Origin: Naegleria gruberi
Lineage: Eukaryota
Strand: one strand, 5' to 3'
Length of the DNA stretch: 1,205 nt
Assembly: GCA_000004985.1 (NCBI GenBank)
Contig: GG739503.1
How positions within the stretch are numbered: position 1 is the stretch's first letter; every line of letters begins with the position of its first letter. Position numbers and translations under genes: made by a program. The notes beneath the pieces are model-generated. The model was not told the DNA's origin, did no database searches, and worked only from the letters and a program-made list of their open reading frames with translations. Below are positions 1 to 1,205 of this stretch, in pieces.

Positions 1-342
1 TTAAATATTTATCAATTTAATTATTAAAGTTAAGTTAAATATTAAAACCACATTAAAAAACAACCTACCAGTTAGCAACAAAAAGTTAATTTCATCAAAC
101 GAAAACAAATCAATACATTTTAAATTTTTCAATTTGATCAAATAATTATCCACAACTTTTGTTAATTGATTATTATCGACCGAGACATGAATGAAATACT
201 TGGATTTTTTCTCTACTAAATAACACCAAATCCAGTCGGAGAAGATATTTGAAACCAATCTCATAGGAAACAAGTAATCTTCATCTAGAAAACACAACAA
301 GTGATCCCTACACAATTCGAAAGGCAAATCTTGTAGCTTCAT
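1..342 (-). CDS. Small F-box-motif protein (hypothetical, 113 codons as an open frame; the true C-terminus is uncertain)
   Basis: The minus-strand ORF has a genuine ATG (plus 340-342 = cat) in the context ataaaaaaaATG, with A at -3. It is the first ATG after an in-frame stop at 388-390, and it ends with TAA at 1-3. Residues 3-39, LQDLPFELCRDHLLCFLDEDYLFPMRLVSNIFSDWIW, fit the F-box consensus (L..LP.EL....L..LD...L...RLVS..F..W.W; Pfam F-box and F-box-like type). These correspond to plus ~226-336. The first ~55 codons use TTG-dominated, yeast-like codons (ttg x6, aga, gat, gaa). The last ~20-55 codons are extremely AT-rich: positions 1-60 are about 10% GC, translating to FFNVVLIFNLTLIIKLINI*. 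That looks like 3' UTR rather than coding sequence. Confidence 0.5.
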   Translation of the reverse strand: MKLQDLPFELCRDHLLCFLDEDYLFPMRLVSNIFSDWIWCYLVEKKSKYFIHVSVDNNQLTKVVDNYLIKLKNLKCIDLFSFDEINFLLLTGRLFFNVVLIFNLTLIIKLINI

Positions 343-495
343 TTTTTTATGTTTTAATTCTGAGAATTGATGATCCCGTTGATATGATCACCATCACGAT
401 GTGATTTGTTTCCTAACCGGAACGAAATTCTAATGATGTTCACTGAACTATTTAAGGTGAATGTAACATTTTTTCTCAATTTTTTTGAAATTATT

Positions 496-652
496 GGAGG
501 GAAAGAAGTAAGGGGAAAGTTTAATTGAACCGAATTCATAATGGAATATGGAGCTAAAAATTGCAAATTGTGATGGTAATCCAAACACTGGAAAGAAGAA
601 TTTGTGGGAATCGGAAAGGTTGAAAACACAATAATTATTCTGAGAAGGAAAG
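496..652 (+). repeat. Oriented cluster of GGAAAG motifs plus a 24-nt polypurine tract in the F-box gene's upstream region
   Basis: GGAAAG occurs on the plus strand at 500-505, 514-519, 590-595, 613-618 and 647-652. The extended 9-mer GGAAAGAAG occurs twice (500-508 and 590-598, exactly 90 bp apart). Positions 496-519, ggagggaaagaagTaaggggaaag, are purine-only except for one T. On the gene strand (minus) this reads as a CTTTCC / polypyrimidine tract. Confidence 0.4.
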
Positions 653-653
653 T

Positions 654-659
654 TTTATT
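654..659 (-). terminator. Candidate polyadenylation/positioning hexamer AATAAA for the LSG1-like transcript
   Basis: Plus 654-659 is tttatt, which reads AATAAA on the gene strand (within gtagtAATAAAac). It sits 104 nt downstream of the TAA at 763-765, which is a plausible 3'-UTR length for a yeast-type gene. A single hexamer in 30% GC DNA is weak evidence. Confidence 0.3.
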
Positions 660-762
660 ACTACAATGGGCTCGTTTCAAATATTTAACAACGAAAATGA
701 AAAAACCAAAATAGCTTGGTTTGTGCAATGCACATTATGAAAATTTTCTTGATAATCTTAAT

Positions 763-1205
763 TTATTCTTCATGCAAAGCAAAAGTATCTCGTTCTAACT
801 CTCTAATGTAATCGAAATCACTAGCTTGTGGTTGCTTTTTGTTTTTCTTTTTAGTATCCTTATTTGATTGTTGAGATGATGCACTTGGTATTATTGACTC
901 CTTTTTATCTTCTGTTGGTTTAACCTTAACACTTGGAGGATCAAAAGCAAGAATCAATGCAACATCGTCACCTTTAAGAACACGTCTCAAAAGTTCGTTT
1001 GCAGCTCTGTAAACGTCTGGTCTTGCATTCTTCTTTGTCATGTAGCCTCTCTTTCTTGCGTATGCTTCTGAAAGAGTCCAAGCTGACCATGAAATGTCAT
1101 TTTCCAAATCGTATTCATCTTGTTTCAATTTTAAGAGCTTTACCAAGTCAACTCTTTCTGCTAAATATCTTACAATACTGTATGGATCTCTAACTTGACT
1201 GATTG
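763..1205 (-). CDS. LSG1: 3' part (C-terminal ~147 codons, 5'-truncated by the window edge) of an LSG1-like large-subunit GTPase; the N-terminus and GTPase domain lie beyond position 1205
   Basis: Translating the minus strand by hand, the reading frame stays open from 1205 through the track's start at 1146, so the gene runs off the window. The codon at 1144-1146 is TTG, not ATG. The stop is TAA at 763-765. The translation ...ISQVRDPYSIVRYLAERVDLVKLLKLKQDEYDLENDISWSAWTLSEAYARKRGYMTKKNARPDVYRAANELLRRVLKGDDVALILAFDPPS... matches the C-terminal block RGY-T-K-AR-DVYRAAN-LLR...G...F-PP that I recall from LSG1 orthologues (human ...RRGYKTAKAARNDVYRAANSLLRLAVDGRL..FHPPGY). A disordered Lys-rich/acidic tail (KDTKKKNKKQPQASDFDYIRELERDTFALHEE*) follows. 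Codon usage (cca gac gtt tac aga gct gca aac gaa ctt ttg aga cgt gtt ctt aaa ggt) is typical of a well-expressed yeast-like gene. Confidence that this is a CDS is about 0.8. Confidence in the LSG1 identity is about 0.55. The GTPase G-motifs that would confirm it are outside the window. Confidence 0.7.
   Translation of the reverse strand, partial: ISQVRDPYSIVRYLAERVDLVKLLKLKQDEYDLENDISWSAWTLSEAYARKRGYMTKKNARPDVYRAANELLRRVLKGDDVALILAFDPPSVKVKPTEDKKESIIPSASSQQSNKDTKKKNKKQPQASDFDYIRELERDTFALHEE

What the first reader, a model, noticed from the sequence alone, without database searches (positions are those of the whole stretch)
1..342. Minimal F-box-only ORF with no room for a substrate-binding domain
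Residues 3-39 of this ORF form a clean F-box (LP.EL....LL.FLD...L...RLVS.....WIW), and its start context and early codon usage look genuinely coding. Characterised F-box proteins pair the F-box with a WD40, LRR, Kelch or other interaction module of 300+ aa. This ORF is capped at 113 aa (fewer if the 3' third is UTR), so it cannot carry one. Three explanations are possible. It could be a stand-alone Skp1-binding mini-protein, acting as an SCF decoy or competitor. It could be a decayed or truncated F-box paralogue. It could be the first exon of a spliced gene whose remaining exons I cannot see. Each would be worth knowing.
Basis: partly seen in the sequence, partly recalled or inferred. Interest (0 to 1): 0.5.

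Follow-up and report, generated by a model that had tools for sequence, protein, structure and literature searches.

The report
First exon of large F-box gene
The 113-codon "mini F-box" reading frame is really the first exon of a roughly 1100-residue Naegleria F-box/leucine-rich-repeat/MATH protein read on into its first intron, so it is an ordinary gene cut short by the window edge, not a stand-alone Skp1-binding mini-protein.

Summary
The ORF exists as described: minus strand, ATG at 342, TAA at 3..1, 113 codons. It is not a complete gene.

- **Orthologue.** Residues 1-91 are 97.8% identical to the N-terminus of Naegleria gruberi NAEGRDRAFT_80857, a 1101-aa protein. The match stops at window base 70.
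- **Splice donor.** The sequence there reads ACT G|GTAGGT. The orthologue continues ...LLLT-D-VGLYEIG, while the window ORF reads on into 14.7%-GC sequence and hits a stop.
- **Intron conservation.** Three related loci have a G|GTARGT donor in the same alignment column. Two show a complete phase-1 intron of 44 or 47 nt. The window's acceptor and all later exons lie beyond base 1.
- **Not F-box-only.** The first leucine-rich repeat starts inside the exon. The orthologue model has about 20 LRRs, a helical region and a MATH-like beta-sandwich, and resembles D3/MAX2, COI1 and TIR1.

The "minimal F-box" reading is rejected. Interest is low.

The parts
69..342 (-). Coding part of exon 1: 91 full codons plus the first base (G) of codon 92. 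It encodes the N-terminus of an orthologue or allele of N. gruberi NAEGRDRAFT_80857.
   Evidence: tblastn aligns P0001 residues 1-91 to window 342..70 at 97.8% identity, E 3.9e-55, and no other part of P0001 is found in the window. phmmer gives E 3.6e-51. P0001 continues LLLT-D-VGLYEIG where the window reads LLLT-G-RLFF.
340..342 (-). Start codon ATG in an A-rich context (ACATAAAAAAATG).
   Evidence: P0001 and the paralogue P0005 start at the same methionine, MKL(Q/L)DLP.
208..336 (-). Divergent F-box-like segment, residues 3-45, with predicted helices 8-16, 21-27 and 32-44.
88..201 (-). First leucine-rich repeat, residues about 48-85, with a strand-helix-strand layout. This is the start of the long LRR solenoid of the full protein.
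   Evidence: Pfam LRR_4 at E 0.0074-0.01 for residues 54-85, below threshold. AF2 places strands at 48-53 and 76-81 and a helix at 57-66. In the full-length orthologue model the LRRs run from residue 48 to 606.
63..68 (-). 5' splice donor GTAGGT, in the context ACT G|GTAGGT. The intron is phase 1.
   Evidence: Read from the sequence. The G|GTARGT column is invariant in four homologous loci. L003 splices G|GTAAGT..TAATAG|AT (47 nt) to give SLT-D-VGL. In L002, a 44-nt GTAAGT..CAAG intron inferred by inspection joins the two called ORFs to give D-G-FGLVEIGKL. The L004 donor is G|GTAGGTTT.
1..68 (-). 5' part of intron 1. It is incomplete because the acceptor lies beyond window base 1. It contains the in-frame TAA at 3..1 that ends the apparent 113-codon ORF.
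   Evidence: GC is 14.7% against 29.6% in the exon. The only AG dinucleotide is the one inside the donor itself. The read-through tails of relatives are not conserved: RFQKK..., KS, RFICS, GKLSEF....
343..762 (-). Intergenic spacer between two tandem minus-strand genes. It should hold the promoter and 5' UTR of the F-box gene and the 3' UTR of the upstream gene. These roles are inferred and were not mapped.
   Evidence: GC is 30.5%. There are no tRNAs and no Rfam family at threshold. The 124-aa TTG ORF at 354..728 has no Pfam hit.
763..1205 (-). 3' end of the upstream neighbour gene, open to the window edge, with its stop TAA at 765..763. It is tentatively the C-terminal region of an LSG1-family (YlqF/YawG-type) ribosome-biogenesis GTPase. 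It is not part of the finding.
   Evidence: for the translation. The weak PDB hit is to yeast Lsg1 at E 0.14, with the local match AYARKRGYMT against AYARARGYMT. No Pfam or NCBIfam hit.

Best explanation
Window 342..69 (minus strand) is the coding part of exon 1 of a multi-exon Naegleria gene. The gene is the orthologue, or another strain's allele, of N. gruberi NAEGRDRAFT_80857, a protein of about 1100 aa.

Exon 1 encodes a divergent F-box (residues about 3-45) and the first leucine-rich repeat. It ends at a phase-1 donor, ACT G|GTAGGT. The apparent 113-codon ORF arises because the reading frame stays open for 22 codons into the AT-rich intron before reaching TAA at the window edge. The acceptor and the remaining roughly 1010 codons lie outside the window. 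In the orthologue these encode about 20 LRRs, a helical region and MATH/TRAF-like beta-sandwich domain(s).

Inferred mechanism, not shown here: the full protein is an FBXL-type substrate receptor of an SCF (Skp1-Cul1-F-box) ubiquitin ligase. The N-terminal three-helix F-box would dock on Skp1. The LRR solenoid and the C-terminal MATH domain(s) would recruit substrates for ubiquitylation.
For: **Shown**
- phmmer against 1.84 billion representatives: P0001 (1101 aa) at E 3.6e-51, matching query residues 1-96 to protein residues 1-96.
- P0001 is N. gruberi XP_002673675.1 / NAEGRDRAFT_80857, named 'MATH domain-containing protein' by UniRef.
- tblastn: P0001 residues 1-91 align to window 342..70 at 97.8% identity, with no further exon in the window.
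- The break sits at G|GTAGGT, and P0001 continues T-D-VGLYEIG.
- A G|GTARGT donor occupies the same alignment column in three relatives (L002, L003, L004). L003 shows a complete phase-1 intron of 47 nt there. L002 gives a 44-nt one inferred by inspection. L004 ends before any acceptor.
- GC drops from 29.6% to 14.7% at the boundary.
- Architecture of the orthologue: helices, then about 20 LRRs, a helical region and a beta-sandwich. The best Foldseek PDB matches are Skp1-bound F-box-LRR receptors: D3/MAX2 at E 3.3e-11, then COI1, TIR1 and Dia2.
- MATH_2 scores 58.4 bits against a cut-off of 32 in P0007, and is sub-threshold in P0001, P0008 and P0009.

**Inferred from established knowledge**
- F-box domains bind Skp1 in SCF ligases, and LRRs are the substrate-binding module of FBXL proteins.
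Against: - The window protein gives no Pfam F-box hit, even at E<=10.
- The family profile hits only the cyclin F F-box in the PDB, at a non-significant E of 1.4.
- Foldseek on the 91-aa model gives no significant match.
- The downstream exons of this particular genome were not seen. Intactness of the whole gene is therefore inferred from the orthologue.
- The source genome could not be retrieved. N. gruberi contigs are not on record and two metagenome scans found nothing.
- No transcript data are available.
- Skp1 binding is untested.
- In the full-length model the first 35 residues have low confidence.
Confidence: 0.9

Rival explanations
1. A stand-alone mini F-box protein of 113 aa, either encoded as such or produced by regulated retention of intron 1. 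It would bind Skp1 without a substrate-binding module and act as an SCF decoy or competitor.
For: The frame stays open for 22 codons into the intron and ends in a stop. In three relatives the intron is also read through to an early stop, giving public 'proteins' of 108-180 aa. Intron retention is a common form of alternative splicing in non-animal eukaryotes, which is general knowledge and was not tested here.
Against: - The read-through tails share no similarity between relatives.
- The window tail has intron-like composition, 14.7% GC.
- The orthologue is annotated as a spliced 1101-aa protein.
- One family member, P0007 on L001, has no intron and is a continuous 1247-aa ORF. The conserved product is therefore the long protein.
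- The exon already contains an incomplete LRR, which would be exposed and unstable on its own.
Confidence: 0.04
2. A decayed or truncated paralogue: a 5' gene fragment or pseudogene whose downstream exons are missing or disabled in this genome.
For: Nothing beyond exon 1 is visible in the window, so intactness cannot be shown directly. The family has several paralogues in N. gruberi (P0003, P0010, P0012), so duplicates exist.
Against: - Only two amino-acid differences from the N. gruberi orthologue in 91 codons.
- Intact ATG and intact reading frame.
- Intact donor identical in form to that of L004.
- Normal spacing, 420 bp, from an upstream gene on the same strand.
Confidence: 0.05
3. A chance ORF in AT-rich non-coding DNA that happens to resemble an F-box.
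For: No Pfam F-box hit. The word-index protein search found no homologue.
Against: The exhaustive phmmer search gives 10 homologues, the best at E 3.6e-51. tblastn gives 97.8% identity over 91 aa. The start methionine is conserved in P0001 and P0005.
Confidence: 0.01

Closest known systems
Naegleria gruberi NAEGRDRAFT_80857 (XP_002673675.1, UniRef100_D2VQE4; 'hypothetical protein' / 'MATH domain-containing protein', 1101 aa)
   Same: Residues 1-91 are 97.8% identical, with the same start methionine. The protein continues across the position where the window has a splice donor.
   Different: Two substitutions in exon 1, N32K and D83G, so the window comes from another strain, haplotype or sister species rather than the same record. 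Only exon 1 is in the window. No public source annotates an F-box on this protein; the precomputed Pfam field is '-'.
F-box/LRR (FBXL-type) SCF substrate receptors: SKP2, FBXL2/5/17, and plant D3/MAX2, COI1 and TIR1
   Different: Sequence similarity is marginal: no Pfam hit for this member, and 12-22% identity in the structural alignments. The Naegleria protein adds a roughly 200-residue helical region and MATH-like beta-sandwich domain(s) after the LRRs, which the FBXL proteins named above lack. Skp1 binding is untested.
MATH/TRAF-domain substrate adaptors, for example SPOP/BPM (MATH-BTB adaptors of Cul3 ligases)
   Same: Family members carry a C-terminal MATH domain. P0007 scores 58.4 bits on MATH_2 against a cut-off of 32, and the orthologue P0001 is sub-threshold at E 0.012.
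   Different: There is no BTB domain. The cullin-docking element here is F-box-like, which would point to Cul1 through Skp1 rather than Cul3. The MATH region is outside the window.
Short 'proteins' P0002, P0004, P0005 and P0006 (108-180 aa) in metagenome protein catalogues
   Same: The homologous exon 1 is called as a complete ORF because the frame runs on into the intron...SLTGRF......SLTGKS...SLTGRFICS.
   Different: They are 40-44% identical paralogues or orthologues from other heteroloboseans, not the same gene.

Membership tests
F-box domain (Pfam PF00646 / PF12937) | Significant match of the protein itself to the F-box profile HMMs | tested here: not met
   No hit at E<=10 for the 113-aa ORF, for residues 1-49 or for residues 1-92.
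F-box domain (Pfam PF00646 / PF12937) | Homology to proteins that match the F-box profile in the aligned segment (transitive test) | tested here: met
   Six of 11 aligned family members hit PF00646 and five hit PF12937. P0004 scores 27.6 bits against a gathering score of 20.5, E 2.5e-6. P0005, which is 44% identical to the window, covers profile positions 1-38 at E 0.03 and 0.007. The family profile against the PDB gives only the cyclin F F-box at E 1.4, which is not significant.
F-box domain (Pfam PF00646 / PF12937) | Three-helix F-box fold of about 40-45 residues | tested here: met
F-box domain (Pfam PF00646 / PF12937) | Binding to Skp1 | not testable with these tools
   Needs a pull-down, two-hybrid assay or complex prediction with Naegleria Skp1.
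FBXL-type (F-box + LRR) SCF receptor | LRR solenoid directly following the F-box | tested here: met
   The first repeat is inside the exon: LRR_4 at E 0.0074-0.01 (sub-threshold), with a strand-helix-strand layout in the AF2 model. The orthologue model has about 20 repeats over residues 48-606. The best PDB matches are D3, COI1, TIR1 and Dia2. The bulk of the LRRs is shown for the orthologue, not for this genome.
   The stop at 3..1 lies 66 nt past a conserved G|GTAGGT donor, in 14.7%-GC sequence. The orthologue continues for 1010 residues. An LRR starts within the ORF.
Orthologue of N. gruberi NAEGRDRAFT_80857 | High identity, collinear from the start codon | tested here: met
   97.8% identity over residues 1-91, E 3.9e-55. 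The next best family member is 51% identical. Collinearity beyond exon 1 cannot be tested because the rest lies outside the window.
Spliceosomal (U2-type GT-AG) intron | GT donor at a position conserved among homologues, and an AG acceptor that restores the frame | tested here: inconclusive
   Donor: met, with G|GTARGT invariant in four loci. Complete phase-1 introns of 44 and 47 nt are seen in L002 and L003. Acceptor in this locus: not in the window, since there is no AG in 62..1.
MATH/TRAF domain protein | Match to the MATH profile | not testable with these tools
   The region lies outside the window. In relatives, P0007 passes (58.4 bits against 32), and P0001, P0008 and P0009 are sub-threshold.

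The most novel reading that the evidence does not exclude
Intron 1 sits just after the F-box and the first LRR. A donor occupies the same alignment column in four loci, and every one of them runs into an early in-frame stop. This placement could be a conserved switch: retaining the intron would yield a roughly 110-aa Skp1-binding F-box stub that competes with full-length receptors.

A weaker form of the novel reading is that this is a small family, seen here only in Naegleria and unidentified metagenome contigs, that joins an SCF-type F-box/LRR receptor to MATH domains. MATH domains are normally found in Cul3 adaptors.
Probability: 0.05. Interest if true: 0.5.

Novelty: new member of a known kind. 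Interest (0 to 1): 0.12.

Why it matters
**Main point: a correction.** An apparent orphan mini F-box protein disappears once the splice donor is recognised. The same artefact has put 108-180-aa 'proteins' into public metagenome catalogues.

**Minor positive points**
- The Naegleria protein NAEGRDRAFT_80857 and its paralogues are annotated only as hypothetical or MATH-domain proteins. They probably carry a cryptic N-terminal F-box followed by about 20 LRRs, which would make them candidate SCF substrate receptors in a deep-branching eukaryote.
- At least two N. gruberi gene models in the family seem to miss or mis-join this first exon.

None of this is surprising to a specialist, and it opens no long-standing question.

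Tried and rejected
**Searches that led nowhere**
- Word-index protein searches with the 113-aa ORF and with the neighbour's C-terminus found nothing. This was a sensitivity failure of the index for short queries, not absence: the exhaustive search then found a 98%-identical protein.
- Exact look-up of the ORF as a called gene: not on record.
- Viral-contig scan with a 30-mer from the exon: no match, so there is no sign of a giant-virus origin.
- Two metagenome scans, one with exon 1 and one with the neighbour protein: pattern matches only, none confirmed.
- Retrieval of N. gruberi genomic DNA for P0001, P0003 and P0010: not on record. The acceptor and downstream exons could therefore not be inspected, and dN/dS could not be computed.
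- NCBIfam scan: nothing, as expected for a eukaryote.
- Literature search for the locus tag and accessions found no paper. Nothing specific turned up on Naegleria F-box or MATH proteins.

**Ideas rejected on reasoning**
- A 52-nt intron wholly inside the ORF (GTATTG...CTAAC..TAG, window about 116..65). Removing it shifts the frame into an immediate stop, and it contradicts the orthologue, which is collinear up to residue 91.
- Ciliate-type stop-codon reassignment as a way of extending the ORF. It is unnecessary once the Naegleria orthologue and the donor are found.
- Dictyostelium or microsporidian origin. These were first guesses from the AT-richness, replaced by the 97.8% match to N. gruberi.

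Full report
**1. The observation**

The window is 1205 bp of AT-rich DNA with local GC of 19-44%. It lies on the minus strand, with ATG at 342..340 in an A-rich context (ACATAAAAAAATG) and TAA at 3..1, giving 113 codons.

Its N-terminus reads MKLQDLPFELCRDHLLCFLDEDYLFPMRLVSNIFSDWIW. By eye this has the LP..EL....L..FL....L...RLVS..F..W spacing of an F-box.

The only hit is a sub-threshold LRR_4 match at residues 54-85, with E 0.0074-0.01 and 16.5-17 bits against a cut-off of 27. That LRR hint already argues against an F-box-only protein.

**2. What the ORF is**

The fast word-index search found nothing. The exhaustive phmmer search of 1.84 billion representative proteins found ten homologues.

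The best is P0001, 1101 aa, at E 3.6e-51, matching query residues 1-96 to its own residues 1-96. P0001 is Naegleria gruberi NAEGRDRAFT_80857 (XP_002673675.1). NCBI names it 'hypothetical protein' and UniRef names it 'MATH domain-containing protein'.

tblastn of P0001 against the window aligns residues 1-91 to bases 342..70 at 97.8% identity, with two substitutions. No other part of P0001 is found in the window.

At the break, the window reads ...CTA ACT G|GTAGGTTG.... P0001 continues ...LLLT-D-VGLYEIGRL..., whereas the window ORF continues ...LLLT-G-RLFFNVVLIFNLTLIIKLINI*. So codon 92 is split after its first base, which makes the intron phase 1. The donor GTAGGT occupies bases 68..63.

The remaining 68 nt are 14.7% GC against 29.6% in the exon. 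They contain no AG apart from the one inside the donor. The acceptor and all later exons therefore lie beyond base 1. The TAA at 3..1 is an in-intron stop.

**3. The intron is conserved in relatives**

- **L003**, an ENA metagenome contig encoding P0004, has ...TCA TTA ACA G|GTAAGT...(47 nt)...TAATAG|AT GTT GGA TTG..., which gives SLT-D-VGL.
- **L002**, encoding P0005, is a N. gruberi-like paralogue. Its GTAAGT...CAAG intron of 44 nt, inferred by inspection, sits in the same alignment column and phase. It joins two separately called ORFs into ...RVD-G-FGLVEIGKLKKVEEL....
- **L004**, encoding P0006, has the donor G|GTAGGTTT, nearly the same as the window's.

An alignment of the four junctions shows G|GTA.GT invariant. 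Coding-level similarity lies upstream of it and there is none downstream.

The short catalogue 'proteins' P0002, P0004, P0005 and P0006 (108-180 aa) are the same artefact. Each is exon 1 read on into the intron, and their tails are unrelated to each other.

One family member, P0007 on L001, has no intron and is a continuous 1247-aa ORF. This confirms that the conserved product is the long protein.

**4. Is the N-terminus an F-box?**

*Sequence level.* I aligned the N-terminal segments of 11 family members (A1/A2). The consensus is L.LPH.VW.EHLF.FL..N.LL..RLVSK.FS.LVW.

- Scanned individually, six members hit PF00646 and five hit PF12937.
- P0004 passes the gathering score, with 27.6 bits against 20.5, E 2.5e-6.
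- P0005, 44% identical to the window protein, covers profile positions 1-38 at E 0.03 and 0.007.
- The other hits are sub-threshold.
- A profile of the family against PDB sequences retrieves only the F-box of cyclin F, at a non-significant E of 1.4.

*Structure level.* AlphaFold2 on the 91-residue exon with this alignment gives pLDDT 75. The model has helices at 8-16, 21-27 and 32-44, followed by strand 48-53, helix 57-66 and strand 76-81.

- Foldseek finds nothing significant. SKP2 has the best TM-score, 0.55.

I conclude that this is a divergent F-box. The support comes from transitive homology and a predicted fold, and the direct HMM test failed.

**5. The rest of the protein, seen in the orthologue only**

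Pfam on full-length relatives finds LRR families at sub-threshold scores and a C-terminal MATH domain. P0007 scores 58.4 bits on MATH_2 against a cut-off of 32, and P0001, P0008 and P0009 are sub-threshold.

The AlphaFold2 model of P0001 has pLDDT 70.8, with poor confidence for residues 1-35 and 1009-1101. It shows about 20 strand-helix repeats from residue 48 to 606, an all-helical region at 626-838 and a beta-sandwich at 878-1006.

Its best PDB matches are Skp1-bound F-box-LRR receptors: rice D3/MAX2-ASK1 at E 3.3e-11, then COI1, TIR1 and Dia2. Generic LRR proteins such as TLR8 and ribonuclease inhibitor follow.

**6. Mechanism**

*Shown:*
- exon 1 of a long gene;
- a conserved donor;
- a predicted F-box-like fold followed by LRRs.

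*Inferred from what is established for F-box/LRR proteins:* the full protein is a substrate receptor of an SCF ubiquitin ligase. The F-box would dock on Skp1, and the LRR solenoid and MATH domain(s) would bind substrates. Skp1 binding, substrates and expression are all untested.

**7. Rivals**

| Reading | Main evidence against | Confidence |
|---|---|---|
| Stand-alone or retained-intron mini-protein | Unconserved read-through tails, intron-like composition, the intron-less long homologue | about 0.04 |
| Truncated pseudogene copy | Cannot be excluded because the rest is outside the window, but the intact ATG, frame and donor and the 98% identity argue against it | about 0.05 |
| Chance ORF | Excluded | 0.01 |

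**8. Source and context**

The 97.8% match indicates Naegleria of the gruberi group: another strain, another haplotype or a sister species. Published Naegleria genomes are gene-dense with 33-37% GC, and N. clarki is sister to N. gruberi (PMC12482156).

Upstream on the same strand, 420 bp away, is the 3' end of another gene (1205..763). Its product has a weak match to the C-terminal region of yeast Lsg1 GTPase, E 0.14, with AYARKRGYMT against AYARARGYMT. The spacer has no tRNA or Rfam family.

**9. Novelty and verdict**

The orthologue is already in public databases as an uncharacterised protein. No paper in the searchable library mentions it. What is new is small: recognition of a cryptic F-box in a small Naegleria-centred F-box/LRR/MATH family, and a few likely gene-model errors.

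I rate this as a new member of a known kind, with interest 0.12.

Noticed in passing
window 763..1205 (-): This is the 3' end of a second gene on the same strand, open to the window edge, with its stop TAA at 765..763. The product ...SEAYARKRGYMTKKNARPDVYRAANELLRRVLKGD...DPP... weakly matches the C-terminal region of yeast Lsg1 (large-subunit GTPase 1) at E 0.14, with a near-identical AYAR.RGYMT motif. It ends in a Lys/Ser-rich tail. There is no Pfam or NCBIfam hit.
   Followed up: partly
window 354..728 (-): A 124-aa ORF with a TTG start fills most of the intergenic spacer. It has no Pfam hit and no homologue signal, and it reads like translated non-coding DNA. It is most likely spurious.
   Followed up: partly
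L002 431..830; P0012 residues about 195-235: The N. gruberi gene model P0012 (1299 aa) contains only the tail of the homologous exon 1 (ATDRILCEIIDNYLIKLENLTRIDCNF..RVD), fused to an unrelated-looking N-terminal LRR stretch. Right after ...RVD it also skips about 100 residues of exon 2 that are present in L002. The metagenome contig L002 shows a proper MKLLDLPAEL... start and a 44-nt intron. The public model therefore looks mis-joined.
   Followed up: partly
P0003 (N. gruberi NAEGRDRAFT_53933), residue 1: This paralogue's gene model starts at MRFISKTFAEW..., which corresponds to residue 27 of the window protein. The first two F-box helices are missing, so the start is probably mis-called. Its C-terminus carries START-like (E 3.9e-4) and RGS-like (E 0.011) matches in place of most of the MATH region. 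This could be a fused gene model.
   Followed up: no
L001 2920..6663: The family member P0007 (1247 aa, metagenome contig) has no intron at the position where four other loci have one. Intron presence therefore varies within the family. Its neighbours are an SGT1-like TPR/SGS protein and a WD40 protein, not the GTPase seen in the window.
   Followed up: no
The word-index protein search returned nothing for a 113-aa query, although the database holds a protein 98% identical over 91 residues. A negative result from that tool on a short query is not evidence of absence. The neighbour gene's 'no homologue' result should be read the same way.
   Followed up: yes
window 1022..1059 (-): A sub-threshold Rfam match to CRISPR-DR47 (24.5 bits against a gathering score of 39, E 0.073) lies inside the coding sequence of the neighbour gene. 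It is a chance match in a eukaryotic coding region.
   Followed up: no
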